NCBI GenBank assembly: GCA_021786105.1
Contig: JAJYNW010000015.1
Location: forward strand, 12,685 to 76,684
Origin: a bacterium
GTDB lineage: Bacteria > Patescibacteriota > Microgenomatia > Daviesbacterales > UBA10151
Length of the DNA: 64,000 nt
Direction: 5' to 3'
Shown: positions 5,954 to 45,840 of the stretch, one piece after another
How the letters are laid out: every line of letters starts with the position of its first letter
Numbering within the stretch: position 1 is the first letter of the stretch
The notes under the pieces: model-generated
What the model was told of the DNA's origin: nothing
The model's database searches: none
Seen by the model: the letters and a program-made list of their open reading frames with translations, nothing else
Program-made: the position numbers and the translations under genes

Positions 5954-7285
5954 ATGGATAATTTAAGGCTTTGGCACAAATTTTTAGAATCTGTTAAATC
6001 TGAGGTCGGTCCGGCCAACTATAAAGCCTGGTTTTTAAAAACCTCCCTAAAAAGCTTTACGGAAGAAAAAGTTATTCTCTCTACTCCCAATGCTTTTATT
6101 AAAGAAACTTTAAATCAAAAATATCTATCGATTATTGAAGCGAATTTTGAAAAACTGATTGGCAAAAGAGTATCGATTGAATTTATTATCAAAGAAACTG
6201 AAGCTACAATAGAGGAGGAGCCAGCGGAAGAAGACTTTTTCCAACCAGTCCAAGCCCCGGTCTCTGTTTTAAACCCCAAGTATACCTTATCCAACTATGT
6301 CGTCGGCCCCTCTAATAATGTAGCTTACGCCGCCGCCCAGGCCATTGTCCAAAACCCCGGTACCTCTTACAACCCGCTATTTATTTATGGCGGCACTGGA
6401 GTAGGTAAGACTCACTTAATGCTTGGCATCGGCAACGGAATTTTAATCAAAAAACCCCACGCCAAAATTATCTATGCTCCTTCAGAAAAATTTATGAATG
6501 ATTATGTAGCAGCTATCCAGACTAATAAAATGAGGGATTTGCGAAACAAATACCGCTCCCCGGATGTATTGCTGGTAGATGATATTCAATTTTTCTCCGG
6601 CCGGGAAGGTACCCAGGAAGAATTTTTCCACACCTTTAATGAATTGATCGGTAAAAACTGCCAAATTGTTTTGACCTCGGATAAATCACCTCACGAAATT
6701 GCCAAACTGGAAGATCGGCTTAAATCCCGTTTTGCCGGCGGGTTAATGATCGATATTCAAACCCCTGACTTTGATACCAGGGTAGCCATTCTGCGCTCAA
6801 AGTGTTTGGAGCATAAAGTCAACCTGCCGGAAGAAACTTTGAAAATATTGGCTGCATCTTTTGAAACCAACATCAGGGAACTGGAAGGACAATTAGTTGG
6901 CATCCTACAGCTTCTTCAGGCTCAAAACCTGCCTCCCACTACTGAAAATATCAGCCGGCATTTACAAACTAAAGCTCCTACCCAAAACGGTTTTAAGGTT
7001 GAACCCAAAAAAGTTTTGGAAACCGTCTGTCAGTATTTTAACCTTAACCAAAAAGAGCTAATCGGATCAAGGCGGCAAAAGGAATTGGTTCTACCGAGAC
7101 ATATCACTATGTTTATCTTAAGTGAACACTTAAATTTAACTGTGGAAAAAATCGGACAAGTCTTAGGCGGTCGGGACCATACTACAGTTATGCACGGACG
7201 GGACAAAATCAAGAAAATGGTGAATCAGGATAGGGAAGTACAACGGATGTTAATTGAGATTAAACAAAAGTTGATGGCCGCCTAA
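5954..7285 (+). CDS. dnaA: Chromosomal replication initiator DnaA
   Basis: Walker A GGTGVGKTHL, AAA+ domain and C-terminal DnaA-box binding domain (VMHGRDKI). Confidence 0.95.
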   Translation: MDNLRLWHKFLESVKSEVGPANYKAWFLKTSLKSFTEEKVILSTPNAFIKETLNQKYLSIIEANFEKLIGKRVSIEFIIKETEATIEEEPAEEDFFQPVQAPVSVLNPKYTLSNYVVGPSNNVAYAAAQAIVQNPGTSYNPLFIYGGTGVGKTHLMLGIGNGILIKKPHAKIIYAPSEKFMNDYVAAIQTNKMRDLRNKYRSPDVLLVDDIQFFSGREGTQEEFFHTFNELIGKNCQIVLTSDKSPHEIAKLEDRLKSRFAGGLMIDIQTPDFDTRVAILRSKCLEHKVNLPEETLKILAASFETNIRELEGQLVGILQLLQAQNLPPTTENISRHLQTKAPTQNGFKVEPKKVLETVCQYFNLNQKELIGSRRQKELVLPRHITMFILSEHLNLTVEKIGQVLGGRDHTTVMHGRDKIKKMVNQDREVQRMLIEIKQKLMAA

Positions 7286-7470
7286 AGTTATCCACCAGGT
7301 TTTACCACTTTTCCACAATCTATCCACTGCTAATAAACAAGCCGTAAACACGAAAATTTACCAAAAAGCGAAGCTAGTTTTCGACTTACCAACATATCCA
7401 CCAACTATACTAATACTACTAATGTTTAATAAATTATGTAGTATAATCGAACATACCTGTGGATAACTTC
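7286..7470. promoter_or_regulatory. Candidate oriC: DnaA-box cluster plus AT-rich unwinding stretch
   Basis: TTATCCACC 7288-7296, TTTTCCACA 7309-7317, CTATCCACT 7320-7328, ATATCCACC 7394-7402, TGTGGATAA 7458-7466; AT-rich 7400-7450. Confidence 0.5.
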
Positions 7471-7914
7471 AACTGGGCGCTGATTACAGCCTTATTCTTA
7501 CTTTTAATAATAGCTTATTTAATCGGAAGACTTCATAACAGAAAGTCAGCAGATATACCCACCGACTTAATTGATCTGTATAAAGGAGTGCAGGATTTAC
7601 CAGCCCGAGTTTTACAAACCATTCAGGGGTCAATTAATCCCCAAAAGGGTAAGATGGCTGAGCTGCTAACTTATGCAGAATTACGTTATGATTATGACCG
7701 AATTGTGCCGTTGGGTTGGCCAATTGATTTTATTGGTATTAAAAATAATGAACGGATTGACTTTATCGAGGTTAAGTCCGGTCAATTTCATGTCTTGACA
7801 GAAGAGGAAAAACACATTAAAAACCTTATAGCTGCCGGCCGGGTTAATTTTAGGTTAATCAAAGTGACTGAAGAAGAAGTTCAAAGGTTCGTTTCTGCTC
7901 GGGAAAGGAAATAA
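7459..7914 (+). CDS. Membrane-anchored Hjc-like PD-(D/E)xK nuclease (Holliday junction resolvase family)
   Basis: N-terminal TM helix; AELLTYAEL...PIDFIGIKNNERIDFIEVKSG matches the E...D...E-x-K pattern of archaeal Hjc. Confidence 0.45.
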   Translation: MDNFNWALITALFLLLIIAYLIGRLHNRKSADIPTDLIDLYKGVQDLPARVLQTIQGSINPQKGKMAELLTYAELRYDYDRIVPLGWPIDFIGIKNNERIDFIEVKSGQFHVLTEEEKHIKNLIAAGRVNFRLIKVTEEEVQRFVSARERK

Positions 7915-7989
7915 TAGCTATCAGTCATCAGCTTTCAGCTATCAGATTTAAAAAGTCTGAAGACTGACGACTGAAGACTGACGACTGAT

Positions 7990-9090
7990 ATGAAATTTAC
8001 TGTATTACAACAAGACTTACTACCTTCTCTGCAGGCAGCAGCCAGATCAGTAGGTGTCAGGTCCACCCTGCCGGTTTTAGATAACATCTTACTCTCGGTT
8101 GAAAGCAAAAAGTTAAAGATCGCTGCAACCAATTTAGAAGTGGGGGTGATTAAATATATTAACGTGGAAGAGGAAAGTCCCGGGGAAATTACTGTTCCGG
8201 CCAAAACTTTAGTAGAGTTGGTGTCCGGATTAGGACCAGATAAGCTGAGTATAGTAGCAGAGGGTGAAGTGTTAACGGTTGAGTCCGGCAAACTAAAAGC
8301 TTCCATTAATGGTATTTCGGCTGGTGAATTTCCGGTTATTCCTTTATCTTCCGGCTCCGGTGTTGATTTTCCCAAAGCAGCCTTTTTAACCTCTTCCCAG
8401 ATTTTATTTGCCTCAGCAGTTGATGAGGGTCGGCCGGTTCTAACCGGGATTTTCACGGAAGTTAACGACGGCAAGCTAGACTTTGTGGCTACTGATGGTT
8501 TTAGGTTGGCTCACCGCCGGTTGGAAGTACCTAAAGATCAAGCTCAGTTTAGAAGCTTGATTCCCCGGCGGACCTTTGAAGAGGTGTTGCGATTGATGTC
8601 AGAAGAAGATGTAGATCAGGTTAATATTGCCACTTCCCAAAATCAAAACCAGATTGTCTTTACTTTAGGTAATACCATTGTCTCGTCTCGCTTGATTGAG
8701 GGACAATTCCCGGCCTGGGGTAAGATTATCCCGCAAAAAATTGTAGCCAGAGCCATGGTGGAGAAGGATGAACTGTTAAAAGCGATTAAACTGGCCGCTA
8801 TCTTTGCCAAAAATGAAGCTAATATTGTGGTTCTGACTACCAAAAAAGGTCTCTTGAAATTAGAATCTCATACCAAAGAAGTTGGCAGCCAGGAAAATGA
8901 GATTGAAGGCGAGATTGAGGGTGAGGAGCTAAAGATTGCTTTTAATACCAAATTTCTACTCGATGCTGTGTCTAACTCTCCTGCCACCAAAGTGATGATG
9001 GAATTTTCCGGCCCTTTGTCTGCAGCTATTATTAAACCGGTTGGAGTTGAGGGGTTGGAATATATTGTGATGCCGGTTAGACTGAGTTAA
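7990..9090 (+). CDS. dnaN: DNA polymerase III beta sliding clamp
   Basis: 366 aa, three-domain clamp, immediately after dnaA. Confidence 0.9.
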   Translation: MKFTVLQQDLLPSLQAAARSVGVRSTLPVLDNILLSVESKKLKIAATNLEVGVIKYINVEEESPGEITVPAKTLVELVSGLGPDKLSIVAEGEVLTVESGKLKASINGISAGEFPVIPLSSGSGVDFPKAAFLTSSQILFASAVDEGRPVLTGIFTEVNDGKLDFVATDGFRLAHRRLEVPKDQAQFRSLIPRRTFEEVLRLMSEEDVDQVNIATSQNQNQIVFTLGNTIVSSRLIEGQFPAWGKIIPQKIVARAMVEKDELLKAIKLAAIFAKNEANIVVLTTKKGLLKLESHTKEVGSQENEIEGEIEGEELKIAFNTKFLLDAVSNSPATKVMMEFSGPLSAAIIKPVGVEGLEYIVMPVRLS

Positions 9091-9096
9091 TTCCTT

Positions 9097-9170
9097 TTTG
9101 TCATCCTGAGGCGATTAGCCGAAGGATCTCAAGACTAATCTAGATTCTTCGCTTCGCTCAGAATGACAAT
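9097..9170. repeat. Imperfect inverted repeat/hairpin of the gtcatcctgagcgaagcgaagg family (terminator-like)
   Basis: gtcatcctgaggcgattagccgaaggatct ... agattcttcgcttcgctcagaatgac; related copies at 39577-39660 and 40597-40632. Confidence 0.45.
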
Positions 9171-9171
9171 T

Positions 9172-9675
9172 CTAAACACCCGTATACTTAATCGTCCTGA
9201 AATGGAAGATTTTCTCTTCTCCCCATCTGCCTACTCCGTCAAATTTGGTATCTGGGCCAATAAATAAGGTAAAGGTGGTGCCCAGCGGGTAGGGTTTGGC
9301 TGGAATAATCCTGGCGGTTTTTCGGTCCCCGGAAAGCTCGACTTTGTAACCTATCTCCGGTTCCATCCGGCTCTTAAATTCCCCCACATTTTCCAGTGAT
9401 CGGTTAAAGGTAATTTCGACAACATCGGTAGCTCCCACGATATTATCTTCCAAAGGATCAGGTTTGGTGGAAATAATCTGCGGTTTGTCGTTTTCAGAAA
9501 CCTGAATAGGTTTTTTATCCGAGGAGCTTGTAGTGGGTTTACTGGAAATTCCTTTCAGAAAGATTATTACCAGTATAATCCCTATAATCACTATCCCAGT
9601 AATAATTTTTTGTTTTGAAGTTTTCAGCATATTCTTATTTATAAATAGTATCAATTTCCATATATTGTTTATCAA
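9172..9675 (-). CDS. Hypothetical secreted/membrane protein with Ig-like beta domain
   Basis: N-terminal TM, Ser/Thr linker, beta-rich C-terminus; last gene of the VirB4 operon. Confidence 0.35.
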   Translation of the reverse strand: MINNIWKLILFINKNMLKTSKQKIITGIVIIGIILVIIFLKGISSKPTTSSSDKKPIQVSENDKPQIISTKPDPLEDNIVGATDVVEITFNRSLENVGEFKSRMEPEIGYKVELSGDRKTARIIPAKPYPLGTTFTLFIGPDTKFDGVGRWGEEKIFHFRTIKYTGV

Positions 9676-10123
9676 TATTTTGCTCTGCCAAAAATTGGTT
9701 AAACTCTTGTTGTCCTTGATCCGGGTTATCCTTATTTAGCTCTAATGTAAACAAATTGTTCTTTATATTATAAGTTAAAGTAAAGTTTGTCCCTTTGTAA
9801 GGGAGCTTTAAGAGTAATTGACTAATTCTTTGCCTTTTTGCCAAATAAACATCTTGATTAGCCTGGTCTTGTCGGTATTTTTGTACTAGGGCCGGATCAG
9901 TATTTGGCCCGACTCCATTAGATGCCCCCTCAGGCATGATTGTTGGATGAGGCGTAAATGGAATATTTGGTTTTGAGCTTGGAGACGGAGCGGTTAAGAC
10001 GGGAGGTGGAGCAGGAGGGAGTCTTTTCGTATTTGAGAGAATAAAAAGGGTTGCGGCTAGGGTAAAAATTAGGGCTATAAGGATAAAAATAGTTATTTTT
10101 TTGCCGATACCCAGAAAGTTCAT
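9635..10123 (-). CDS. Hypothetical membrane protein, Pro-rich linker
   Basis: N-terminal TM, PPAPPPVLTAPSPSS linker; operonic with the hydrolase. Confidence 0.35.
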   Translation of the reverse strand: MNFLGIGKKITIFILIALIFTLAATLFILSNTKRLPPAPPPVLTAPSPSSKPNIPFTPHPTIMPEGASNGVGPNTDPALVQKYRQDQANQDVYLAKRQRISQLLLKLPYKGTNFTLTYNIKNNLFTLELNKDNPDQGQQEFNQFLAEQNIDKQYMEIDTIYK

Positions 10124-10124
10124 T

Positions 10125-12545
10125 TTAATTACCTTTCCTTTTTATAGCTGCTGCAAAAAACCATGGGTGCGATTTATTATACTCTACACTATCAGGAATT
10201 AAGCTAATTAGTTTATTGCTAATCCATTGATTGGAATCATATTGGGAAGTATGTTCTGGTCGGCAATTTACAGGGTCCTCAACATGGACAAGGTTTTGAT
10301 TGATGTTAACATCGTCAATGGCAAAGATATGATCAACAACGCCTTGCTTAAGAGATCCGGGTCCGCAACCGCCGGGGTTCGGGCAGGGAAATTGATGAGA
10401 AGAGGCCACAATTAAATAGCCATTGTCTAAATATTCTTTTGCTTGGGTTAAATTAAGACTGCCGTCAGCATTTAATGCCAGATATTGGTAAGTGAAATTA
10501 TCGTTAAACCAGGTACTATTGCTAAAGAACAAACTCATGGTACTGCCGTAATTGCCGCAAGACCGGGCACCGGTATCTCTAAACATTTGGTCTATTTCTA
10601 CCGGGGTTTTAACCAGACCAAGGCTGGAAACAACAATAGCCGTTGAGCTTGGGCCACAGCCGTAATAATTAATACTGCAAGCATACTGCCAGGCCGGGTC
10701 GTCTTCACAGTAAAATTTGATATTTGGTTTTCCTCCGGGTAGAGGATTAGAGGAGGATTGACAGCTGTTGTAGCTTTTCCACAGGTCATCGCCATAATCG
10801 TAGGGGCCGCTGACGCAAGGATTATAATTCGGATCCTGCTTCTTTTTAGCAGTAATTGCCTCAGGTGTATCATATTTAGTACAGTTTGAAGGATCAGTGA
10901 GTCTTGCCCCGCTATAGTACATCGAAGCGATATCTCGGACAGTATTTTCGTTCCAGTCACCCGGCAGTTTATCAGTTTTAATTTTTAAAGCGGCCGCAGT
11001 GATTGAGTCGCGGATGCTATAGATTCTAAAGACATTTGCGGGAGCCATCGAGTTTTGCGGGTCAACAGTGTTTTTAACAGAGGTCTTATTAAATAAAGTT
11101 TTCAGGTCAGAAGAATAGCTGTTAAAGATATTGGTAAATGTCCCGGGCATAAATTGCATAATTCCAATAGCTCCTTCTTCACTGCTTTTTGCTTCATAAT
11201 CATTAGTTAAATAGTCAGCGGTTGAGCTAAAAGCGCTGGGAGATTCGACTCTCATGATTCCAGCCAAAATTGCTGCAGGAACGCCAACTTTATCGGATAT
11301 ATCAGTGAACAACCCAGCCATGGCTGGGTTGTTTAATTTCATTCCAGCATTAGCTCCATCTCCTCCCCTGTAAAAAGTACAAGAGGTGATATCTCCACCT
11401 CCTGGTGAGGGAGCTATTGGTATAACTCCGGTTGGGTTATTGCCGCCGATTATGGTTAATCCTCCTACCAGCATCATAAAACCCAGTATGCCAAACAAAA
11501 ACAGCAGCCACTTTTTGCTTTTGACGTTTTTACCAAATGAGGATACTGTCTGTCTGCCGCCTCTGCCGAATCGGTTAAATTTCCCAAAGATGCTTCTGCT
11601 GCCTCCGCCAAATCCGCCCGGATTGGCAATAGTGGTCAGGTTGCTGACTAGTCCGGTGCCCATCCGTCCTAAAAATGGGTTAGCGCTTTCCAGTCCGGTT
11701 TTGGCTGCTCCAAATATTCCCCGGCCGATTCTGCCTAAATTTTTCTTGGCAAATATCTGCGTATTTGATCCAAAAGTTTTAAGGAAACTGGGGGTTTTGA
11801 TGGTGTGTTCTCCAAAAACTCTGCCATCGCTTCTGGCTACGGCTATCTTTGATGGAGGTGTTTTTGTCTCAATAATTGATCCGTTTTCTCGGGCCAGGAT
11901 CAATTTTGGTGTTTCCGGGCCCGGACCTTTGGGAAGATTGGGTTGGCTTAGGGGGTGCTCCGTAACTGTCCCGGCTTTATTTTCAGTAAACAAAGTTGAG
12001 CCGGGTTTTTCGGCAATTTTCCCTTCGCTGGTGGCCAGTGCTATTTTGGGGGTTTGGGGTTGAGGGGTGGGTTGGTTAACAAACACCACACGGCCTGGTC
12101 TGGGAGAAATGACTGGACCGGACGGTAAACCCATACCCGGCATGCCGCCGGCAGTAGCACCGGGCGTGGTTTGGGGGGCGTTGGCTGGAGTTTGTTCCGG
12201 CGTAATTTCATATTTGTCTGCTTGTTCGACGGCCTCACCATCAATAACAAATCTACCTTCCAGCGCCTGATTTAATTCAGCTCCTTCGTTGGCCACAAAC
12301 TTACCTAAAATGCTGTTTTTGACATTTTTATAATCTTTTAAATGCTCAATTAGTGCTTCGTCTTTGAGTCCTTTTAGGGTCGGGTCTTTTGCGCGCAGCA
12401 AATTAAAACACTCTGCCCGATCCACAGTAAACCGCTGCCCTTTAATTGTGACGGTTCCTTTAGGGGGGATATTTTCCGCATGAAAGTGAGCTTTAGTCAG
12501 GACAAAGATAAAGACTTTTAGTTTGTCAAAATCTGAATATGCCAT
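10125..12545 (-). CDS. Membrane-anchored bifunctional cell-wall hydrolase: lytic transglycosylase (SLT) + papain-like (C39/CHAP-like) peptidase; VirB1/PrgK-like
   Basis: SLT motifs MRVESPS and GIMQFMPGTF; downstream Cys (YYGCGPSSTAIV) and His (VVDHIFAIDDV) dyad; single TM near residue 340; immediately downstream of VirB4. Confidence 0.65.
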   Translation of the reverse strand: MAYSDFDKLKVFIFVLTKAHFHAENIPPKGTVTIKGQRFTVDRAECFNLLRAKDPTLKGLKDEALIEHLKDYKNVKNSILGKFVANEGAELNQALEGRFVIDGEAVEQADKYEITPEQTPANAPQTTPGATAGGMPGMGLPSGPVISPRPGRVVFVNQPTPQPQTPKIALATSEGKIAEKPGSTLFTENKAGTVTEHPLSQPNLPKGPGPETPKLILARENGSIIETKTPPSKIAVARSDGRVFGEHTIKTPSFLKTFGSNTQIFAKKNLGRIGRGIFGAAKTGLESANPFLGRMGTGLVSNLTTIANPGGFGGGSRSIFGKFNRFGRGGRQTVSSFGKNVKSKKWLLFLFGILGFMMLVGGLTIIGGNNPTGVIPIAPSPGGGDITSCTFYRGGDGANAGMKLNNPAMAGLFTDISDKVGVPAAILAGIMRVESPSAFSSTADYLTNDYEAKSSEEGAIGIMQFMPGTFTNIFNSYSSDLKTLFNKTSVKNTVDPQNSMAPANVFRIYSIRDSITAAALKIKTDKLPGDWNENTVRDIASMYYSGARLTDPSNCTKYDTPEAITAKKKQDPNYNPCVSGPYDYGDDLWKSYNSCQSSSNPLPGGKPNIKFYCEDDPAWQYACSINYYGCGPSSTAIVVSSLGLVKTPVEIDQMFRDTGARSCGNYGSTMSLFFSNSTWFNDNFTYQYLALNADGSLNLTQAKEYLDNGYLIVASSHQFPCPNPGGCGPGSLKQGVVDHIFAIDDVNINQNLVHVEDPVNCRPEHTSQYDSNQWISNKLISLIPDSVEYNKSHPWFFAAAIKRKGN

Positions 12546-12548
12546 AAA

Positions 12549-14312
12549 TTATTTTCCGTTTTGTTTTGCCAAAATTTCCTCCGGGTTGGTAGTAATTAGC
12601 TGATGTTCCTGCGGGGAGGCCACCACCCGCATGGCCACATGAGTGTTGCCGGCAAAAAATATACCCTCGCCGATCCCCTCTGATAACAGCAGTCTTTGCT
12701 CCCCTTCTGACAGGTTGAAAACATGAGCCAGCAATTCGATGGAGGAAGGGGCTTGTTTTAAAAGGATTTGAATGGATGAATTAGAGATAATTTCTTTGCC
12801 TCTTTCAGTGGCCAGGAAATCTTCAATGTCTTGAGTGATGGTGGTGAGTCCTAAATAGTATTTGCGGGCCCGCTTGGCCATATCCACCAAAAAGTCCGCT
12901 GAATCCTGGTTGCGCATCAAATACCAGGCTTCATCCACAATCAGAATTCTTCGTTTCAATTTGCCACGGATTTTGGTCCAAATATAATCTAAGATCATGT
13001 GGATGGCCAGGGGCCTGAGTTGATCCGGTAGGTCGCGGACAGAAAAGACCGTAAAGGAGTTGGACAGGTCAACATTCGATTGCGAGGAGAAGATGCCGGC
13101 TAACGATCCTTTGATAAATCTTTCCAGTCGGGCGGCCAGTTCGGCTGCGGCTGGTTCTTCCATACCGAGTAGAACTTTATATAAATCTTCCATTAAGGGT
13201 GGCACTCTATTCTGAGTTTTTGGATCATCGGTAATACCCTTGAGCTGGTAAGTTTGTTTGAGGCTGCGGTCTAAAATGGCCGCTTCTTGGGCATTTAAGT
13301 TGCCTAAAACAATTTTCAAAAATGTTGTTAAAGACAAAATTTTCCGGCCTAGTTCATTTTCGCCTTCACTCAGCTCCCCTGACATATCAAAAGGGTTAAT
13401 CTTGACCGGGCTGGCAGCGGAAAAATTGATGTATTCTCCGCCTACGGCTTGAGATAACGGGAGGTATTCCTGTTCGGGATCAATGACAATAATTTCTGCC
13501 CCAAACATTAATGATCTTAAGGCTTCCAGTTTTACCAAATAAGATTTACCGGCGCCGGCTTTGGCAAATATCACCGAATTGGCATTTTCTAAAGAGAAGC
13601 GGTCGAATAAAATCAGCGAGCCGTTGTGCTCATTAATACCATACATGATTCCTTCGTTAGCTGTTAGTTCTGATGAGGCAAATGGGAAAGTGGTAGCCAG
13701 CGAGGTGGTATCCATATTATGAGTAAGATTTAACAGATCAGTTCCTTGGGGTAAGGTCGACTTAAACCCGTCCTCCATTTGTAAAGTGGTTTGCCGGGCG
13801 GTGATAGATAATGAAGCTAGGGTGGACTCTACCAGTTTGGAGGTGTTTTGCAGTTCTTCCAAAGATTGGGCCGGAACAGTGACATAAAGGGCAAACTGGA
13901 AGAACCGCTCTACTCCCCTAACCAGCTGGTCTTGTAAAGTCCGGGCATCTTCTAGGGCTACCTCCACCGCCGGATCAACCGGCCGGCCGCGCTCCAAATC
14001 TGTTTGGATGGTGGCTTCCATTTCCGCCACTTTGCGTTTTAGTTCATCCAAAACCCCTTGTGATTTGGAAGGGTAGATAAACATGGAGATTAGCAGAGAA
14101 TGATCAAAAGAAATGAGCGGTTCCAGCCAGTTGGGTTCAACAAATCTGGGGTAATCGGATACGAAGTAAGTTCGGAAGAAGCGGTGATCCAGCCGCAAGT
14201 TGCTAAAATCCACCTCAATTTCTGCCGGAGCCAAAACATCTTCTAAGGTTAGTTGAGGAATAGTTGGTTCGTCTTTGATTTTTGGCTTGTTTGACAGACT
14301 TGGTAGTTTCAT
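12549..14312 (-). CDS. VirB4/TrbE/CagE-like type IV secretion ATPase, C-terminal ATPase part
   Basis: Walker A FAKAGAGKSYL, Walker B RRILIVDEAWYLM, FSVRDL region; 4-nt ATGA overlap with the upstream N-domain ORF. Confidence 0.7.
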   Translation of the reverse strand: MKLPSLSNKPKIKDEPTIPQLTLEDVLAPAEIEVDFSNLRLDHRFFRTYFVSDYPRFVEPNWLEPLISFDHSLLISMFIYPSKSQGVLDELKRKVAEMEATIQTDLERGRPVDPAVEVALEDARTLQDQLVRGVERFFQFALYVTVPAQSLEELQNTSKLVESTLASLSITARQTTLQMEDGFKSTLPQGTDLLNLTHNMDTTSLATTFPFASSELTANEGIMYGINEHNGSLILFDRFSLENANSVIFAKAGAGKSYLVKLEALRSLMFGAEIIVIDPEQEYLPLSQAVGGEYINFSAASPVKINPFDMSGELSEGENELGRKILSLTTFLKIVLGNLNAQEAAILDRSLKQTYQLKGITDDPKTQNRVPPLMEDLYKVLLGMEEPAAAELAARLERFIKGSLAGIFSSQSNVDLSNSFTVFSVRDLPDQLRPLAIHMILDYIWTKIRGKLKRRILIVDEAWYLMRNQDSADFLVDMAKRARKYYLGLTTITQDIEDFLATERGKEIISNSSIQILLKQAPSSIELLAHVFNLSEGEQRLLLSEGIGEGIFFAGNTHVAMRVVASPQEHQLITTNPEEILAKQNGK

Positions 14313-15124
14313 TCAGTTAATTCCTCTACTACAAACGGATGAGTTCTGGTGCTTTGGGTTATAGTTGGCGTGCCGGGTGAGACTGGTGCGCCCGGTGGAT
14401 AGGTCGGAGTATCAGCGATCTGGTTGGTGGACTGGCTTATTGGTGAACTGGTTGGCTGACTTACTGAAATTGGTTGCGGATTTTTCAGTCTAACCGCTAA
14501 TTGTTCTGGACTGACCGGTTGGGTAATTGATTGTTCTAAAGCTTCTCCATTATATACTTCCTTCGGAAGACTGTAATTCTCCGAATTATAAATATCATAG
14601 AAGATCTCAATCAGTTCCCGTCTGGATAACTGGTCAGCGTTTAGCCCTACCCGGGCCAATTGTCTGATGATTTGGTCTCTGCGGGGCCAAAGCACGGTTT
14701 TAATTTTCTGTTCCAGTCTTTCTTTTGAGGCGGTAATGCCCAATTCTAAGGCAAAAAGCGGGATGACAATATAAAATTTTTTATCCAGCACTTCGTTTTC
14801 CTTAATGGTGCTTTGGATGAATTGTTTATACTGGGTGATCATTTGCGATAGTAAGGGATTAGTTTGTGCTTTTTTGGCTTTATCCAAAAGTTCTAAGTAT
14901 GAAGTAATATGAAGTCTTTCCGAATGTATCATGATTTGAATGCTAAAAGACAAGGAATTGAGCATTTGGGCAAAAGAGGAAATAATCGCTACCTGTTCTC
15001 TCTCTGAAAGCAGGCCAAAGTTGACAGCTGAAACTTGTAGGACCAGCGCCCCTCCGCCGTCTTTTAGCAGCAGGATATCGTCCTGGATGTCAGCGATAGA
15101 TAAATGAGATTGTGTCGTATACAT
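14309..15124 (-). CDS. VirB4-like N-terminal domain encoded as a separate ORF
   Basis: IADIQDDILLLKDGGGALVLQVSAVNFGLLSEREQ resembles the conserved N-terminus of Gram-positive VirB4 homologues; low-complexity C-terminal linker. Confidence 0.5.
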   Translation of the reverse strand: MYTTQSHLSIADIQDDILLLKDGGGALVLQVSAVNFGLLSEREQVAIISSFAQMLNSLSFSIQIMIHSERLHITSYLELLDKAKKAQTNPLLSQMITQYKQFIQSTIKENEVLDKKFYIVIPLFALELGITASKERLEQKIKTVLWPRRDQIIRQLARVGLNADQLSRRELIEIFYDIYNSENYSLPKEVYNGEALEQSITQPVSPEQLAVRLKNPQPISVSQPTSSPISQSTNQIADTPTYPPGAPVSPGTPTITQSTRTHPFVVEELTE

Positions 15125-15133
15125 CTTTGAGCT

Positions 15134-16183
15134 TTACTCCTTTGCTGCTATTAACAAAGGAGGTAATACTTGACCAGTTAATTCCATCTGTAAGACATCA
15201 AAAGTCAGGCCCTCCTTTTCCAGCTCTAAAGTATAAGTCCCATTCGGTAAGGGGGTGGAGCCGGTAAATTGGCCCAGCTTATTGGTTTTTAAGGCTCTGA
15301 CCGGCAGGCCCTCCTTATCGTAGATGACTGCTACTACCCCTTCCAGGTAATCGTTCTCTTTGTTTTTTACAATCCCATTGATCACATTAGGAAAGGTGGT
15401 GAGGGCGATTTGGGTTTGTTTGGGTTTTGCCGGAATGACCACTTTAACTTTCTCTTTTAGAATGACTGGGGGAGGCGGAGAGGCAGATTCTGGTTGCGGT
15501 TCTGCGGTAACCGACTGGATTTCCTGTTTGATGGTTGAGGCCTGACTAACCAAGCTTTGCAGGTCATCCAGGATTTTATTGACTTGTTGACCGTAATCTA
15601 CCGGTACAGGGGTAGGCTTTTGGGCGGCTGTTTTAATTTGGGATAAAGTCCGTTCAGTTTGGATAATTTTCATTTGTAATTGCTGGGCCTGACGCGCCAG
15701 ATTAACTGTTTTGCTTAGCTCTTCTTGGGTAGGAAGTTCAGCTGGCGTACCGGCGGGTCGAGGGGTCTGCGCTTCGGCAATTTGGTTAGGTGCTGGTTTA
15801 CTGGTTTGCTGATTGATTGGATCCTGATTTGCGTTATTTAAGTACATCATTAGACGGTTGTTGAATGAAGGATTTTCTTTAAAACTTTTGCCGTTTTTCC
15901 GCCAAACTCTGACGGTGGGGGAATAAACAGCTTTCAAAAAAGCTGCCAGCCAATAATCCAAAGGCCGTGATCCGACCGGTAAAAAAGCAAAACTGATTCC
16001 TAAAATTGCCGAACAGATAATGATCGGCCAGGCGATTAAAGGGAAGCTGTGTGCAAAGAATATAAACATAAGGTAGGAAACAGTAGCTCCGCCCGCCAGA
16101 TAGCCAAATTGTTTGAGGGTCATATCCCCAATTAGCTTAAACTGGAAGGAGGTGACATTTTGCGGAATCGGGTGGACATCCAT
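15134..16183 (-). CDS. Membrane protein: N-terminal two-TM VirB3-like segment, coiled coil, C-terminal CarboxypepD_reg-like beta-sandwich
   Basis: Two TM helices at residues about 30-75, Q/P-rich coiled coil, C-terminus GVVAVIYDKEG...PNGTYTLELEKEGL; first gene of the VirB4 operon. Confidence 0.4.
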   Translation of the reverse strand: MDVHPIPQNVTSFQFKLIGDMTLKQFGYLAGGATVSYLMFIFFAHSFPLIAWPIIICSAILGISFAFLPVGSRPLDYWLAAFLKAVYSPTVRVWRKNGKSFKENPSFNNRLMMYLNNANQDPINQQTSKPAPNQIAEAQTPRPAGTPAELPTQEELSKTVNLARQAQQLQMKIIQTERTLSQIKTAAQKPTPVPVDYGQQVNKILDDLQSLVSQASTIKQEIQSVTAEPQPESASPPPPVILKEKVKVVIPAKPKQTQIALTTFPNVINGIVKNKENDYLEGVVAVIYDKEGLPVRALKTNKLGQFTGSTPLPNGTYTLELEKEGLTFDVLQMELTGQVLPPLLIAAKE

Positions 16184-16684
16184 ATTAGGTACTATCTATA
16201 TACCTCGTGAAAAAAATGATGGCAAGAAGTTCAAAAGAGATCATTTGAGAGCAATCCATACTAATCTCAAATCTTAGATCTCAAATCGCAAATCTACATC
16301 TTAAATTTAAAAACTTTTAAAGCTTTGAGTTTTAAGTTGCAGTTTTGACCTTTGACATTTGAGATTTGAGTTTGTTATTTTATGGAGGTGGTATCTCAGG
16401 TCGAAGTTTCGACCCAAGAGATAATGGGAACCAGGTGCAAATCCTGGACTGTGCCGCAACGGTAATTGTTAGGGTTTAGGGTTTAGATTTCTTGCGATTT
16501 CTAAAAGCGCAGCTTTCAAGCTTTGCTTATACCCTATTGGCTATACCCTAGTCTCTAACATTAGTCCGGAGACCGACCACGCTTAGTGACTAGTCGCTAG
16601 TGACTAGAGTCAAGTGTAATTTGCTTTTTCCAGACTCTAGTCACTCGATTCTAGATTCTATTTTAAATCCCGTGCAGGAGCCAT

Positions 16685-17623
16685 ATGCCAGTATCAGAAC
16701 GAGAACGAACAGCTATTGCCAATATTGCAGGTTGGAGAAACACCGCCCCTGCTCAATTTGCAGAAGAATTAGCCTCTTTAAGTTTGGAAACTCATAGAAT
16801 TGCAGACCCCTATTCTTATTTGATTACAGCGAAAGGAGAATTGTTTTCACCTACAGCTAGATGTCTGATTAAAGATACCATCGATGATAAAACTAGTTTG
16901 TTAGGTAGATTAGAATACCAAGCTGTTTTAGTCACTGAGCAATGGGTAGCTAACAATAATGAGGGAGTAAGTATTTGGGTTAGCCCACCAAAAAAAGGAA
17001 TATATCCCACCTCTAAAATAATTGTTCAGGAAATAGTGCATGAAGGCGGAGTGAAGAAATTATTCAACCGGGCCATTGTTTTGGATTTTAACGAAGAACA
17101 ATGTATGAGGTTTGCTTGGAATCTGACTAGTTTTAGCCACAATAAGCCTATTTTCAGAGACTTGGATGAGATTAGAGCTATTCCTTTAGTATTGAATACT
17201 CAAAATAAATCTTGGATTGATATCTTGGAAAAATTAATTGATGTTCCGAAAGTTTGGGCAATGATTCGAAACGGAGAAGATAAGCAGTATAAAAAAGAGA
17301 CCCTCAGGCAGGCTGTAATAGTCCAAAAGCAGTTCTTTACTGATTCCAGGCTATCTTATTCAGATGAAGCAAAAATAGCCGTTATGCAAATGCTAGGGTC
17401 AAAATCCGGCAGTTGTCCGCCGCGATCTGGTACTCAGGGCAGAACAGCTTTTCAAGCTATTGCCGGTTCTGCCGTGACAGTTGGCAGTGGAGGGGGATTG
17501 GTCGAATCAGATCAATATGGGTCTTTGGAGTTTGAGTGCCCAAAGTGCAAGAAAACAAATACCAGACCAAAGGGTCAACTAATACCAAACTGCCAGCATT
17601 GCGGGCAAGATGTCCGTTGTTAG
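16685..17623 (+). CDS. Hypothetical protein with C-terminal zinc ribbon
   Basis: 312 aa; CPKCKK...CQHCGQ C4 motif at the C-terminus; no other recognisable domain. Confidence 0.4.
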   Translation: MPVSERERTAIANIAGWRNTAPAQFAEELASLSLETHRIADPYSYLITAKGELFSPTARCLIKDTIDDKTSLLGRLEYQAVLVTEQWVANNNEGVSIWVSPPKKGIYPTSKIIVQEIVHEGGVKKLFNRAIVLDFNEEQCMRFAWNLTSFSHNKPIFRDLDEIRAIPLVLNTQNKSWIDILEKLIDVPKVWAMIRNGEDKQYKKETLRQAVIVQKQFFTDSRLSYSDEAKIAVMQMLGSKSGSCPPRSGTQGRTAFQAIAGSAVTVGSGGGLVESDQYGSLEFECPKCKKTNTRPKGQLIPNCQHCGQDVRC

Positions 17624-17631
17624 TGGTATAA

Positions 17632-17895
17632 TTGGGATCTATGAAAACCTCCAAAGATTTACAGTTTAAAGTTCTTATAGAACAAGATGAAAATGGGCTG
17701 TATGTGGCTTCAGTTCCTGAGCTTCCTGGTTGTTACACTCAAGGGAAAACTTTGGAACAAGTTAGAAGAAGAATCAAAGAGGCGATAGAATTGGTATTAG
17801 AAGCAGATGAAGATTTAAAGAAAGAGAAAATACAATCTTCGAAATCTCCACAATTCTTCGGCATAGAAGAAGTGACGATTCGAGGCTATGCCTAA
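17632..17895 (+). CDS. hicB: HicB-family antitoxin (UPF0150)
   Basis: NGLYVASVPELPGCYTQGKTLEQVRRRIKEAIELVLE matches the HicB N-terminal domain. Confidence 0.7.
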   Translation: MGSMKTSKDLQFKVLIEQDENGLYVASVPELPGCYTQGKTLEQVRRRIKEAIELVLEADEDLKKEKIQSSKSPQFFGIEEVTIRGYA

Positions 17896-17974
17896 ATTAT
17901 CTCCTATTTCAGCTAAAGAGTTAATTAAAAATTCTACTTTTAGGAAGTTCTATGCTGGAAATATTAATACTTGA
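17888..17974 (+). pseudogene. hicA: Truncated hicA toxin remnant (28 codons)
   Basis: MPKLSPISAKELIKNSTFRKFYAGNINT then stop. Matches the HicA start MPKLPxISGxELIK but the gene is about 60 aa too short; overlaps the hicB stop. Confidence 0.5.
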
Positions 17975-17999
17975 CAAAAAGTATTACTTTTTGTATATT
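17971..17999 (+). promoter_or_regulatory. Near-consensus sigma70 promoter for the ATPase gene
   Basis: TTGACA, 17-nt spacer, TATATT. Confidence 0.45.
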
Positions 18000-18042
18000 A
18001 GTAATTGTGAAAAGGAAGCTATTCCAGCAAATTACAGCCAGA

Positions 18043-26662: not shown

Positions 26663-27388
26663 TCAATACCCCCAGTTCACGGGAGGAGAACAATCTGAGG
26701 GATTAGTTGGTGGATGAGTTAAGGCAAAAGCTTGCTGACCCGGGCAGGAGATGCGATAGAGGTCGCCCCATCGCTCGATTGTGCATCCTTTGCAAACGCT
26801 CTCGTCAAAAAACTCAAATCCGGTAAATGTGCCCAAAACTGAGATAATGGCAAAAGCCGCGGCAAAGAGTAGGATGCCTATAATAGCATTTAAAATTCTC
26901 CTTTGAGCGGCAGCTAATTGTTCTTTATCCCCTCCGGAAGTAAGCCATTGAAAGGCTCCCCAGAGGATCATAAATAGCAAGACAATGGCGGCTACCATAT
27001 AAATTAAGTTGACGCCGTTTGATAAAAATTGGCTAATAGCTCCGGCGCCGGTCGGGTCTTTTTTTAACATGCCTTGCAGCGGGTTGGGAGGCAGAATTTT
27101 GCCAAACAGGTTTTGGACAGTATCTATTTGGCATGTAGAAGCTTGGGTAGTTTTACCAGGTGGGATATCCGGGGTACCGTCTTTATTATAATGCAGTTGG
27201 CAGCTGTATTTTTTTCCCTGATAATCATCGCAGGTATCAACACCGGGGTGGCAAATTTCGTCGTGACCACAAGGAACACCATGGCAGGCGCTGGTATCTG
27301 CTAAAACGGCTGTGTGACTAAACAGTAAAACAGCGGTTATAACGGTAAGAAATGCTAATAAGCTGGTTAGGAAAAATCTCTTCGACAT
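26663..27388 (-). CDS. Pilin-like paralog 3 with Cys-rich ectodomain
   Basis: Signal peptide; 12 Cys in the N-terminal 90 aa; LWGAFQWLTSGGDKEQLAAAQRRILNAIIGILLF; Cys-rich C-tail. Confidence 0.5.
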   Translation of the reverse strand: MSKRFFLTSLLAFLTVITAVLLFSHTAVLADTSACHGVPCGHDEICHPGVDTCDDYQGKKYSCQLHYNKDGTPDIPPGKTTQASTCQIDTVQNLFGKILPPNPLQGMLKKDPTGAGAISQFLSNGVNLIYMVAAIVLLFMILWGAFQWLTSGGDKEQLAAAQRRILNAIIGILLFAAAFAIISVLGTFTGFEFFDESVCKGCTIERWGDLYRISCPGQQAFALTHPPTNPSDCSPPVNWGY

Positions 27389-37455: not shown

Positions 37456-38214
37456 ATGATAATTGGTACTTGTCTGTTTTGTAAGAGAAAATACAGAAAA
37501 AGAGAAAAAAAACGCAAATTTTGTTCTTTATCATGCTCGAGTAGTTACAATAAAAACGGCCTTAATCAGGTAATCTTGCCTCGTAAGAGTAGGCTTTTAG
37601 CAGAATTTATAGGTATTTGTCTCGGTGATGGTTATGCTTCTGGTTATCAAGCAGGTATTACACTAAACTCTATAGCGGATCGAAATTATTTGTTATATGT
37701 GGAAGATTTGGCAAGGAACTTATTTCCTGGAGCTACTTTTTCCATAATTAAGAGAAAAAAAGAAAATGCTATTGATATTAGAATAAATTCTAAAACAGTA
37801 GTAATTTTTCTTAAAGGTATGGGGGTTATTCCTAATGCAAAGACAATACCAGATTGGATATTGAAAGAGGAGAAGTATACTAGAGCATGCGTTCGTGGAT
37901 TATTTGATACAGAAGGTTCAATATCTTTTAAGTGCTATAGAGGTAAGAATGGAATAAGTGTCTATAAACAGTTAAATTTTAGAAATTCCAATATGATACT
38001 AATGGGTTTTGTTAAGAATAGCTTGATTAATCTTGGTTTAAAGCCAACTACTACGATGAGAAGATCGCTCTATTTAAGTAATCACGACAGTATAGATACA
38101 TACCGTAAGAAGATTGGGTTTAGTAATCCTAAGCTAAGGGAAAGAAGTTTAATAGAGGATATTTCTGCTTATCTTAACTGGAAAACAAGATTTGATAATC
38201 CAGCTATTACTTAA
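37456..38214 (+). CDS. LAGLIDADG homing endonuclease, free-standing
   Basis: LAEFIGICLGDGYAS and LFDTEGSIS (two LAGLIDADG motifs); N-terminal Cys cluster. Confidence 0.7.
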   Translation: MIIGTCLFCKRKYRKREKKRKFCSLSCSSSYNKNGLNQVILPRKSRLLAEFIGICLGDGYASGYQAGITLNSIADRNYLLYVEDLARNLFPGATFSIIKRKKENAIDIRINSKTVVIFLKGMGVIPNAKTIPDWILKEEKYTRACVRGLFDTEGSISFKCYRGKNGISVYKQLNFRNSNMILMGFVKNSLINLGLKPTTTMRRSLYLSNHDSIDTYRKKIGFSNPKLRERSLIEDISAYLNWKTRFDNPAIT

Positions 38215-45788: not shown

Positions 45789-45840
45789 AATGTCTTATAG
45801 TCGTATCAATATTCATAAGATTTTTAGCTTATTGCAAGCC

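What the first reader, a model, noticed from the sequence alone, without database searches (positions are those of the whole stretch)
12549..15124. VirB4-like ATPase split into two translationally coupled ORFs
The 271-aa ORF at 14309-15124 carries an N-terminus that resembles the conserved start of Gram-positive VirB4 homologues (DIxDxILLLKDGGGALVLQVSAVNFGLLSEREQ). The 587-aa ORF at 12549-14312 carries the Walker A (GAGKS) and Walker B (ILIVDEAW) motifs. The two overlap by ATGA and together are about 858 aa, which is normal VirB4 length. The junction lies in a Pro/Ser/Thr low-complexity linker. This is either a genuine two-subunit VirB4, as in a few characterised systems, or a frameshift.
Basis: partly seen in the sequence, partly recalled or inferred. 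Interest (0 to 1): 0.65.

Follow-up and report, generated by a model that had tools for sequence, protein, structure and literature searches.

The report
Naturally two-gene VirB4 secretion ATPase
The motor ATPase (VirB4) of this ultra-small bacterium's type IV secretion system really is encoded as two adjacent genes rather than broken by an error, but this arrangement was already described in staphylococcal plasmids and, in 2025, across this bacterial group.

Summary
On the minus strand a 271-aa ORF (14309-15124) and a 587-aa ORF (12549-14312) overlap by ATGA.

- **Complementary halves.** The two ORFs match non-overlapping parts of one VirB4 profile. The first covers positions 25-199 and the second covers 183-734 of 752.
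- **Not a frameshift.**
  - All 120 best homologues of the small ORF are stand-alone proteins of 242-278 aa.
  - In 82 of 83 sequences examined (80 species loci, two extra orthologue loci and the window), the same split sits directly upstream of a VirB4 body. The junction sequences and frames differ.
  - The identical 271-aa protein occurs on five contigs from three sources.
- **One functional unit.** Fused 780-880-aa homologues exist in sister lineages and are collinear with both ORFs. A model of one fused form superposes on full-length TrwK/VirB4.
- **Known precedent.** The small protein is a TrsD-like VirB4 N-subdomain. Staphylococcal pSK41 TrsD/TrsE is split at the same profile position (183).
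- **Context.** The genes lie in an operon-like block (PrgI/VirB3-like, TrsD-like, VirB4 body, VirB1-like hydrolase) next to dnaN and dnaA. The source is a Candidatus Daviesbacteria (Patescibacteria) genome.

A 2025 paper (PMC12102498) already reports TrsD homologues beside virB4 near dnaA across this phylum, so the finding is real but already known.

One possibly new detail is a variable disordered tail ending in a conserved PFVVEEL peptide. Fused forms lack it.

The parts
15134..16183 (-). PrgI-family (VirB3-analogue) membrane protein, 349 aa, with a Q/P/A-rich linker and a weak C-terminal CarboxypepD_reg-like match. It is the first gene of the block and ends 9 nt before the next start.
   Evidence: Pfam PrgI E 2.3e-9, above the cut-off. 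A PrgI-like N-domain lies directly upstream on the same strand in 69 of 72 related loci with enough flank.
14309..15124 (-). TrsD-like protein, 271 aa. It is a stand-alone first sub-domain of the VirB4 N-terminal domain followed by a disordered tail.
   Evidence: NCBIfam matches to VirB4 models over their N-termini (CD1110 positions 25-199 of 752) and to TrsD positions 21-200 of 201. The identical protein carries PF26593 TraC-like. hhalign against pSK41 TrsD gives probability 95.5%, E 1.5e-8. The top 14 Foldseek PDB matches are all TrwK/VirB4.
14576..15109 (-). Folded alpha/beta domain of the TrsD-like protein (residues 6-183).
   Evidence: AlphaFold2 pLDDT is mostly 83-97 over residues 11-180. 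This part aligns to residues 11-205 of the fused homologue P0273 at 45% identity.
14312..14575 (-). P/S/T/Q-rich, probably disordered tail (residues 184-271). Its length varies greatly among homologues.
   Evidence: 50% P/S/T/Q. pLDDT about 43-64. Homologue lengths range from about 200 to 715 aa, and the variation lies in this tail.
14318..14341 (-). Conserved C-terminal peptide HPFVVEEL (residues 262-269), a candidate short linear docking motif. Its Glu codons also form the GAGG Shine-Dalgarno-like element.
   Evidence: Present in 118 of 120 close homologues and in 0 of 43 fused VirB4 proteins. Conserved in 35 species loci despite heavy synonymous codon variation, and regardless of distance to the stop codon or to the virB4 start.
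14323..14326 (-). GAGG, a Shine-Dalgarno-like element 10 nt upstream of the virB4-body ATG, inside the upstream coding sequence.
   Evidence: Read directly from the sequence. Its function is inferred.
14309..14312 (-). ATGA stop/start overlap, a translational-coupling junction.
   Evidence: The same 4-nt overlap occurs in 29 of the 82 split sequences, and most of the others have a distance between -29 and +14 nt.
12549..14312 (-). VirB4 body, 587 aa. It holds the second half of the N-terminal domain (CagE_TrbE_VirB region) and the C-terminal ATPase domain.
   Evidence: NCBIfam CD1110 VirB4 E 1.6e-117, profile positions 183-734 of 752. Pfam P-loop_TraG, AAA_10, DUF87 and CagE_TrbE_VirB. PDB 4AG5 VirB4 C-terminal domain E 4.7e-49. 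64% identical to residues 212-777 of the fused P0273.
13542..13556 (-). Walker A motif GAGKS (residues 253-257).
   Evidence: and the translation.
12924..12947 (-). Walker B region ILIVDEAW (residues 456-463).
   Evidence: and the translation.
10125..12545 (-). 806-aa membrane-anchored cell-wall hydrolase (SLT lytic transglycosylase plus C39-like peptidase), a VirB1 analogue. It starts 3 nt after the virB4 stop.
   Evidence: Pfam SLT E 3.7e-5 and Peptidase_C39_2 E 1.9e-5, both above their cut-offs. It occupies the same relative position as the CHAP-domain TrsG in pSK41.
9172..10123 (-). Two small ORFs (162 aa and 167 aa, the second with a weak Big_5 match) that complete the tightly packed block.
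   Evidence: A Big_5 protein sits at the same position in orthologous locus L001.
26663..27388 (-). VirB2-like T4SS pilin, 241 aa, about 12 kb from virB4.
   Evidence: Pfam T4SS_pilin E 7.2e-9, above the cut-off. A second, sub-threshold pilin-like ORF lies at 29525-30703.
5954..9090 (+). dnaA (5954-7285), a Holliday-junction-resolvase-like endonuclease gene (7459-7914) and dnaN (7990-9090). This is the replication-origin neighbourhood, convergent with the T4SS block.
   Evidence: Pfam. The same synteny occurs in L001, and dnaN lies within about 4 kb downstream of virB4 in 46 related loci.

Best explanation
This is a genuine, evolutionarily conserved two-gene VirB4 of the chromosomal Patescibacteria-type (Gram-positive-like, MPF-FATA-related) type IV secretion system. 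The source is a Candidatus Daviesbacteria genome. The 271-aa gene encodes the first sub-domain (about 180 aa) of the VirB4 N-terminal domain as a separate TrsD-like polypeptide. The 587-aa gene encodes the rest, namely the second half of the N-terminal domain and the Walker A/B ATPase domain.

The genes are co-transcribed with a PrgI/VirB3-like gene upstream and a VirB1-like hydrolase gene downstream. The ATGA overlap and an internal GAGG element couple their translation, so the two chains should be made in similar amounts (inferred).

The two chains are inferred to assemble non-covalently into a complete VirB4 protomer. In the R388 structure, the N-terminal domain is the part that VirB3 wraps around, that VirB8 tails bind, and that forms the VirB4 dimer interface (PMC9259494). 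The TrsD-like subunit is therefore most likely the membrane-proximal adaptor that couples the ATPase hexamer to the PrgI/VirB3-like protein.

The disordered tail ending in PFVVEEL probably acts as a tethered docking peptide that partly replaces the lost covalent link. This last step is the most speculative.
For: Shown:
- **ORFs and overlap.**
- **Complementary coverage.** The two ORFs cover non-overlapping parts of the CD1110 VirB4 profile, 25-199 and 183-734 of 752.
- **Collinearity with a fused homologue.** In P0273 (794 aa), residues 11-205 match the small ORF and 212-777 match the large ORF. P0273 matches the VirB4 profile contiguously over 24-735. Its model superposes on full-length TrwK/VirB4 with TM 0.68/0.67 and E 1e-29.
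- **Fold of the small ORF.** Its folded domain is closest in the PDB to TrwK/VirB4, which takes the top 14 hits.
- **Conservation of the split.** All 120 best homologues are 242-278 aa. Of 83 sequences examined (80 species loci, two extra orthologue loci and the window), 82 are split with the VirB4 body directly downstream. The junction varies (ATGA in 29, other overlaps or gaps in the rest), which excludes a shared sequencing error.
- **Independent assemblies.** The identical 271-aa protein is found on 5 contigs from NCBI, Logan and ENA.
- **Fused and split forms interleave.** A crude tree of VirB4 bodies needs at least 7 state changes.
- **Precedent.** pSK41 has the order trsC-trsD-trsE-trsF-trsG. 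TrsE starts at the same profile position, 183, and the TrsD profile match has probability 95.5%.
- **Literature.** TrsD homologues are the most abundant T4SS component next to virB4 in Patescibacteria, lie near dnaA, and are essential in S. epibionticum (PMC12102498).
- **Tail motif.**
Against: - No direct evidence here, or in the literature I read, shows that the two polypeptides bind each other. Assembly is inferred from fused homologues by Rosetta-stone logic.
- The match to the curated TrsD model is far below its cut-off (30.5 against 200 bits).
- Translational coupling is not universal. About 16 of the 82 split sequences have spacers of 30-182 nt.
- The PFVVEEL motif is lineage-restricted. 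Many split homologues in other Microgenomates lack any recognisable C-terminal motif, so it cannot be essential to the split state in general.
- The Foldseek matches of the isolated small domain are only marginally significant (E about 1e-3, TM 0.35-0.43 normalised to a query that is one-third disordered).
Confidence: 0.88

Rival explanations
1. The split is a frameshift caused by a sequencing or assembly error, or by a recent pseudogenising mutation, in an originally single virB4 gene.
For: The two ORFs overlap by 4 nt in a low-complexity region, where indel errors are plausible. Single-ORF fused homologues of 780-880 aa exist in related lineages.
Against: Of 83 sequences examined (80 species loci, two extra orthologue loci and the window), 82 show the split, with many different junction geometries and sequences. 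All 120 closest homologues end at 242-278 aa. The identical protein is seen on 5 contigs from three sources. The upstream ORF ends in a peptide conserved at the amino-acid level, and the downstream ORF has its own ATG preceded by GAGG. Fused homologues lack the roughly 110-residue linker and tail, so removing one base here would not recreate them.
Confidence: 0.02
2. The two ORFs are joined into one 858-aa protein by programmed ribosomal frameshifting at the overlap.
For: The downstream ORF is in the -1 frame relative to the upstream one, and the two overlap.
Against: There is no slippery heptamer at the junction (the sequence is CTGAATGA). Across related loci the stop-to-start offset takes all three frames (-4, -1, +1, +3, +4, and up to 182 nt), so no single frameshift mechanism could be conserved. 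Gene callers and databases consistently record separate products.
Confidence: 0.02
3. The 271-aa protein is an independent accessory factor, a diverged paralogue of a VirB4 N-domain with its own role such as substrate recruitment or regulation through its disordered tail. On this reading it is not an integral structural piece of the VirB4 protomer.
For: TrsD has no assigned function (PMC12102498). In Gracilibacteria, TrsD homologues are not adjacent to virB4. The protein carries long, lineage-variable disordered tails with conserved terminal peptides, which is typical of recruitment hubs. The secondary-structure order of the two halves of the VirB4 N-terminal domain looks similar, so paralogy is conceivable.
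Against: The 587-aa body lacks the first ~180 profile positions that the small ORF supplies, without overlap. Fused homologues carry exactly one copy of each part, in the same order, and give a complete TrwK-like fold. Fused and split states interconvert among close relatives. hhalign finds no significant similarity between the small domain and the second half of the N-terminal domain.
Confidence: 0.08

Closest known systems
TrsD/TraD + TrsE/TraE of staphylococcal conjugative plasmids pGO1/pSK41 (MPF-FATA, pGO1 subclass)
   Same: The gene order is the same: VirB3-like (TrsC), TrsD, VirB4 (TrsE), then a cell-wall hydrolase (TrsG). The VirB4 body starts at the same position, 183, of the CD1110 VirB4 profile. 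There is profile-profile homology between the small proteins over 173 columns (probability 95.5%, E 1.5e-8).
   Different: - The window protein scores only 30.5 bits on the curated TrsD model, whose cut-off is 200.
- pSK41 TrsD (227 aa) has no long disordered tail or PFVVEEL peptide.
- pSK41 has a 14-nt gap rather than an ATGA overlap between trsD and trsE.
- The pSK41 system is plasmid-borne with a relaxase and a coupling protein. Here the block is chromosomal beside dnaN and dnaA, with no relaxase or coupling protein found among the ORFs scanned.
Patescibacteria T4SS as catalogued by Quinonero-Coronel et al. 2025 (PMC12102498) and shown essential in Southlakia epibionticum (Wang et al. 2023, PMC10633639)
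   Same: A TrsD homologue lies next to virB4, with PrgI/VirB3-like and VirB2-like pilin genes present. dnaA and dnaN are close by, and no relaxase is evident. Microgenomatia, which includes Daviesbacteria, is one of the classes the paper covers.
   Different: Nothing differs in kind, because this locus is one instance of that system. The paper does not describe the VirB4 as split ('split' has zero occurrences). It says no function is assigned to TrsD, and it reports that few Microgenomatia VirB3 homologues are near virB4. Here a PrgI-like gene is directly upstream in 69 of 72 related loci.
Single-chain VirB4 (TrwK of R388; CD1110-type VirB4 of Firmicutes ICEs; fused Amesbacteria-type proteins such as P0273)
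   Same: The domain content and order are the same when the two window ORFs are concatenated. The ATPase domain matches 4AG5 (E 4.7e-49). The fused relative superposes on TrwK over about 800 columns.
   Different: The chain is broken after the first N-terminal sub-domain, and roughly 110 residues of low-complexity sequence (tail plus the first 19 residues of the body) replace a junction of 18-100 aa.
Tethered C-terminal peptides on disordered linkers (FtsZ C-terminal linker and peptide; SSB C-terminal tip). This is an analogy from general knowledge and was not tested.
   Same: The architecture is a folded domain, a linker of variable length and low complexity, and a short conserved terminal peptide.
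   Different: There is no sequence relationship. The binding partner here is unknown and binding has not been shown.

Membership tests
VirB4/TraC/CagE T4SS ATPase | Whole-protein score above the curated cut-off of a VirB4 family model | tested here: met
   The 587-aa ORF scores 393.7 bits on NF045971 (CD1110 family), cut-off 325, E 1.6e-117. It falls below the cut-offs of the other VirB4 equivalog models, as expected for a divergent lineage.
VirB4/TraC/CagE T4SS ATPase | Walker A and Walker B nucleotide-binding motifs in a P-loop ATPase domain of VirB4 type | tested here: met
   GAGKS starts at residue 253 and ILIVDEAW at residue 456. Pfam P-loop_TraG E 3e-25. PDB 4AG5 VirB4 C-terminal domain E 4.7e-49.
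VirB4/TraC/CagE T4SS ATPase | Complete N-terminal domain (about 400 aa in TrwK) on the same polypeptide as the ATPase domain | tested here: not met
   The 587-aa ORF begins at profile position 183 of 752, and positions 25-199 are on the separate 271-aa ORF. The family is complete only as a two-chain unit.
VirB4/TraC/CagE T4SS ATPase | ATP hydrolysis, hexamer formation, and binding to VirB3 and VirB8 | not testable with these tools
   Requires biochemistry or structure determination. Inferred from R388 (PMC9259494).
TrsD/TraD family (NCBIfam NF041427) / Pfam PF26593 TraC-like | Score above the curated NCBIfam cut-off (200 bits) | tested here: not met
   30.5 bits, E 2.8e-7, although the match covers model positions 21-200 of 201. 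It is therefore a remote homologue and not a member of the narrow staphylococcal subfamily.
TrsD/TraD family (NCBIfam NF041427) / Pfam PF26593 TraC-like | Pfam PF26593 domain | tested here: met
   A precomputed PF26593 hit is recorded on the identical protein P0001 and on all 120 listed homologues. The domain is named 'TraC-like'. The model is absent from the local Pfam copy, so I could not rescore it.
TrsD/TraD family (NCBIfam NF041427) / Pfam PF26593 TraC-like | Homology to authentic TrsD and to the N-terminus of VirB4 | tested here: met
   hhalign against pSK41 TrsD gives probability 95.5%, E 1.5e-8. There are matches to the N-terminal profile positions of three VirB4 models. The top Foldseek PDB hits are all TrwK/VirB4.
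TrsD/TraD family (NCBIfam NF041427) / Pfam PF26593 TraC-like | Gene lies between a VirB3-like gene and an N-terminally short virB4 | tested here: met
   Window gene order. pSK41 gene order. 82 of 83 sequences examined and 69 of 72 loci with enough flank.
Patescibacteria-clade chromosomal T4SS (PMC12102498) | virB4 with TrsD, PrgI/VirB3 and VirB2-like pilin genes, located near dnaA/dnaN | tested here: met
   dnaN ends about 80 nt from the last ORF of the block, and dnaA lies about 5 kb from virB4. A T4SS_pilin gene is at 26663-27388. Homologues are labelled Candidatus Daviesbacteria.
Patescibacteria-clade chromosomal T4SS (PMC12102498) | No relaxase or coupling protein adjacent to the system | tested here: inconclusive
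   None was found among the 26 ORFs scanned with Pfam. Not every ORF of the window was scanned, and two large neighbours (1434 aa and 609 aa) have no Pfam match.

The most novel reading that the evidence does not exclude
The split state is not neutral. After fission, the former inter-domain linker became a long, freely evolving disordered tail that ends in a conserved docking peptide. The peptide is PF[VI]VEEL in the Daviesbacteria lineage and LPP[IL][PA]EI in another lineage whose tails reach 500 aa. On this reading, the tethered peptide holds the N-subdomain on the VirB4 body, on a neighbouring protomer, or on another T4SS or substrate partner. That would make VirB4 assembly or partner recruitment tunable, in a way comparable to the FtsZ or SSB C-terminal peptides. 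The resemblance of THPFVVEELT to the near-invariant TFPFASSELT segment at the boundary between the N- and C-terminal domains of VirB4 hints at strand or peptide mimicry.
Probability: 0.3. Interest if true: 0.45.

Novelty: already known. Interest (0 to 1): 0.25.

Why it matters
The T4SS of Patescibacteria is one of the few machines shown to be essential for their epibiotic lifestyle (PMC10633639). What it transports is unknown. Recognising that 'TrsD' is the missing first sub-domain of VirB4, and not an orphan protein of unknown function, gives it a concrete predicted role: anchoring the ATPase to the VirB3-like membrane protein. It also tells annotators not to flag these loci as pseudogenes. 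That reading is implicit in published work, so the present locus adds an instance and not a discovery. Three incremental points may be new:
- the breakpoint is the same as in pSK41;
- fused and split forms have interconverted repeatedly;
- the tail peptide is conserved.
The tail peptide is a cheap, testable handle on how the two chains, or a partner, are held together.

Tried and rejected
1. A profile of 49 TrsD-like proteins searched against all PDB sequences gave no hit even at E <= 10. The link to VirB4 structures needed fold comparison.
3. The search for related loci with the diverse alignment A1 failed for lack of a conserved stretch. Alignment A2 worked.
4. I considered whether the PFVVEEL conservation merely reflects the Shine-Dalgarno element of the downstream gene. 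I rejected this as the sole cause. The motif persists where virB4 starts 80-180 nt away or where the motif lies 4-7 codons before the stop. Its codons also vary synonymously. In the window, GAGG probably serves both roles.
5. I tested whether the TrsD-like domain is a detectable sequence duplicate of the second half of the VirB4 N-terminal domain. hhalign gave probability 0.3%, so this is unsupported by sequence and only the secondary-structure order is similar.
6. That tree is a crude neighbour-joining tree, so the count of 7 transitions is indicative only.
7. Promoter and terminator consensus scans of 8900-16900 gave terminator-like counts at the shuffled expectation and promoter-like counts only moderately above it (21 found, shuffle mean 13.9, sd 3.1). 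They were not used.
8. Guglielmini et al. 2014 is cited for TrsD-VirB4 homology but does not mention TrsD in its main text.
9. Read-level inspection of the assembly is not possible with these tools.
Full report
**Observation**

The minus strand carries a 271-aa ORF at 14309-15124 and a 587-aa ORF at 12549-14312. They overlap by ATGA. The sequence reads ...GAG GAA TTA ACT GAA TGA, with the downstream ATG formed by the last A of GAA and the TG of the stop. A GAGG element lies 10 nt upstream of that ATG.

Walker A (GAGKS) starts at residue 253 and Walker B (ILIVDEAW) at residue 456 of the large ORF. The last 88 residues of the small ORF are 50% P/S/T/Q, against 23% in the rest of that protein.

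**What the two ORFs are**

- **Large ORF.** It passes the curated cut-off of the CD1110-type VirB4 model (393.7 bits against 325, E 1.6e-117). It aligns only to model positions 183-734 of 752, starting at its own residue 19.
- **Small ORF.** It aligns to positions 25-199 of that same model, to the N-terminal parts of two other VirB4 models, and to positions 21-200 of the 201-position TrsD/TraD model.
- **Pfam.** The ATPase domains and the CagE_TrbE_VirB region fall in the large ORF, not in the small one. The identical small protein carries a precomputed PF26593 'TraC-like' domain.
- **PDB by sequence.** The large ORF matches the solved VirB4 C-terminal domain 4AG5 (E 4.7e-49). A profile of the small protein finds nothing.
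- **PDB by fold.** The AlphaFold2 model of the small protein has a confident alpha/beta domain over residues about 6-183 and a low-confidence tail. Its 14 best Foldseek matches in the PDB are all TrwK/VirB4 of R388 (probability 1.0, E 1e-3 to 1.6e-2).

**Frameshift or real split?**

Four results show the split is real.
- All 120 best homologues of the small ORF (60-73% identity, labelled Candidatus Daviesbacteria or Patescibacteria) are stand-alone proteins of 242-278 aa.
- An orthologous locus has the same order: PrgI-like, TraC-like (255 aa), P-loop_TraG (585 aa), hydrolase, Big_5 protein, dnaN, resolvase-like gene, dnaA. Both of its first junctions are 4-nt overlaps.
- I examined 83 sequences: 80 species-representative loci (Daviesbacteria, Woesebacteria, Gottesmanbacteria, Shapirobacteria, Beckwithbacteria), two extra orthologue loci and the window. 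The N-domain ORF is followed at once by a separate VirB4-body ORF in 82 of them, and only one is fused.
  - The stop-to-start offset is -4 (ATGA) in 29.
  - It lies between -29 and +14 nt in most of the others.
  - It is 30-182 nt in about 16.
  - A shared sequencing error or a conserved programmed frameshift cannot produce such varied junctions and frames.
- The identical 271-aa protein occurs on five contigs from NCBI, Logan and ENA.

**Do the two chains make up one VirB4?**

Fused proteins of 780-880 aa carrying both PF26593 and the ATPase domains exist in sister lineages such as Candidatus Amesbacteria. They account for 43 of the 120 best hits to a fused query.

The window ORFs are collinear with the fused protein P0273. 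Small-ORF residues 3-180 match P0273 residues 11-205 at 45% identity. Large-ORF residues 20-584 match residues 212-777 at 64% identity. The fused junction is only 18-100 residues long. In the split form it is replaced by about 110 residues of low-complexity sequence plus a stop and restart.

P0273 matches the VirB4 profile contiguously over positions 24-735. Its model superposes on full-length TrwK with TM 0.68/0.67 and E 1.4e-29 over about 850 alignment columns.

On a crude neighbour-joining tree of VirB4 bodies, fused and split forms interleave. Parsimony requires at least 7 changes and infers a split root. This count is indicative only, because the sample was drawn with a fused query. Interconversion among close relatives is the classic sign that the two chains function as one unit.

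**Precedent**

Staphylococcal plasmid pSK41 encodes trsC (VirB3-like), trsD (227 aa), a 672-aa DUF87 protein (TrsE), a membrane protein and a CHAP-domain hydrolase, in that order. TrsE matches the CD1110 VirB4 profile from position 183, the same breakpoint as the window's large ORF. A profile of the Patescibacteria small proteins aligns to pSK41 TrsD over 173 columns with probability 95.5% and E 1.5e-8.

**Literature**

Quinonero-Coronel et al. 2025 (PMC12102498) make the following points.
- TrsD was the most abundant T4SS component in Patescibacteria: 2,272 homologues, of which 1,664 lie next to virB4.
- TrsD has no assigned function and is essential in Southlakia epibionticum.
- In Microgenomatia and other classes virB4 lies near dnaA and dnaN.
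- Relaxases are mostly absent and VirB2-like pilin genes are common.

The window fits all of this. dnaA lies at 5954-7285 and dnaN at 7990-9090. A T4SS pilin gene lies at 26663-27388, and a second pilin-like ORF lies at 29525-30703. dnaN is also found within about 4 kb downstream of virB4 in 46 related loci. The finding is therefore an instance of a published arrangement.

**Mechanism**

The shown steps are those above. The following steps are inferred.
- Tight gene spacing (9 nt, then a 4-nt overlap, then 3 nt, then 1 nt) suggests one operon. The ATGA overlap with an upstream GAGG suggests translational coupling.
- In R388 the VirB4 N-terminal domain (residues 15-400) has three roles. VirB3 wraps around it, VirB8 tails bind it, and it forms the whole dimer interface between central and outer VirB4 subunits (PMC9259494).
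- The TrsD-like chain supplies the first half of that domain. It is therefore most likely the adaptor between the ATPase and the PrgI/VirB3-like membrane protein. That protein's gene lies directly upstream in 69 of 72 related loci.

**A detail that may be new**

The tail of the small protein ends in HPFVVEEL (residues 262-269).
- **Distribution.** The motif is present in 118 of 120 close split homologues and in none of 43 fused proteins.
- **Codon variation.** In 35 species loci it is conserved despite free synonymous variation. Pro uses four codons, Leu five and Val three or four.
- **Position.** It lies 226-315 residues from the start and 1-7 residues from the stop.
- **Independence from the virB4 start.** It is retained where virB4 starts 80-180 nt further on.

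Selection therefore acts on the peptide and not only on the Shine-Dalgarno element embedded in it.

Another lineage has tails of up to about 500 residues that end in LPP[IL][PA]EI. Many other split homologues have short tails with no recognisable motif, so this is a lineage-specific elaboration. A tethered docking peptide is a reasonable hypothesis, but it is untested.

**Verdict**

The frameshift and programmed-frameshift readings are rejected. The arrangement is already known from pGO1/pSK41 and from the 2025 Patescibacteria survey, so interest is low. The modest added value lies in three points: the explicit complementarity and shared breakpoint, the fused/split interconversion, and the conserved tail peptide.

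Noticed in passing
window 14318-14341 (-); related loci L001-L052: The TrsD-like protein ends in a conserved peptide PF[VI]VEEL after a tail of variable length and low complexity. It is conserved at the amino-acid level, with many synonymous codons, in 35 species loci and in 118 of 120 close homologues. It is absent from all 43 fused VirB4 proteins. A second lineage has tails of 150-500 aa that end in LPP[IL][PA]EI.
   Followed up: partly
window 13665-13694 (-) compared with 14315-14344 (-): The tail peptide THPFVVEELT resembles TFPFASSELT (residues 207-216 of the VirB4 body). That segment is near-invariant and lies at the boundary between the N-terminal and ATPase domains. BLAST and MAFFT both paired the two segments. 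This could be chance or peptide mimicry.
   Followed up: no
model of fused homologue P0273: The secondary-structure order of residues 18-204 (the TrsD-like part) and of residues 224-377 is similar (b-b-b-a-b-a-a-b-a-b-a). This hints that the VirB4 N-terminal domain is an ancient internal duplication. Profile comparison gave no significant support.
   Followed up: partly
proteins P0308, P0309, P0312, P0318, P0319, P0360, P0362, P0371, P0387: Several Patescibacteria VirB4 homologues are 1158-1215 aa long and carry intein and LAGLIDADG homing-endonuclease domains (PF14890, PF14528) inserted in the ATPase.
   Followed up: no
loci L003, L005, L009, L010, L011, L016, L018, L020 and others: In a subset of Daviesbacteria loci the virB4 reading frame opens only 80-180 nt after the trsD-like stop. 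An ATGA or ATG-AAA start-like sequence still sits at the old junction. This suggests a small intervening ORF or a relocated virB4 start.
   Followed up: no
related loci L003-L082, compared with PMC12102498: A PrgI-like N-domain gene lies directly upstream of the trsD-like gene in 69 of 72 Microgenomates loci. The 2025 survey reported that only 22.6% of Microgenomatia VirB3 homologues were associated with virB4. Its profiles may have missed these divergent, extended PrgI-like proteins of 349-372 aa.
   Followed up: partly
window 19543-23847 (+) and 23877-25706 (-): Two large ORFs (1434 aa and 609 aa) near the T4SS block have no Pfam match at E <= 1e-3. They are candidates for missing T4SS parts (VirB6-like protein, adhesin, coupling protein) or substrates.
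   Followed up: no
window 26663-27388 (-) and 29525-30703 (-): A VirB2-like T4SS pilin (E 7.2e-9) and a second, longer protein with a sub-threshold pilin domain at its C-terminus lie 12-16 kb from virB4. A SpoIID-domain protein follows at 30748-32478.
   Followed up: no
window 17632-17895 (+), 17971-19161 (+), 37456-38214 (+), 44056-45816 (-): Other genes in the window include a HicB-like antitoxin, an AAA_14/DUF4143 ATPase, a free-standing LAGLIDADG-domain protein and a large serine recombinase. These are possible mobile or defence-related insertions in an otherwise core, origin-proximal region that also holds YidC, DnaA, DnaN, DnaG and sigma-70.
   Followed up: no
record titles of loci L005, L011-L015 and others: Many 'binchicken' MAG records that hold this clearly Patescibacteria-type locus are titled 'uncultured Gammaproteobacteria bacterium'. 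These are probably placeholder or wrong taxonomic labels in the source records.
   Followed up: no
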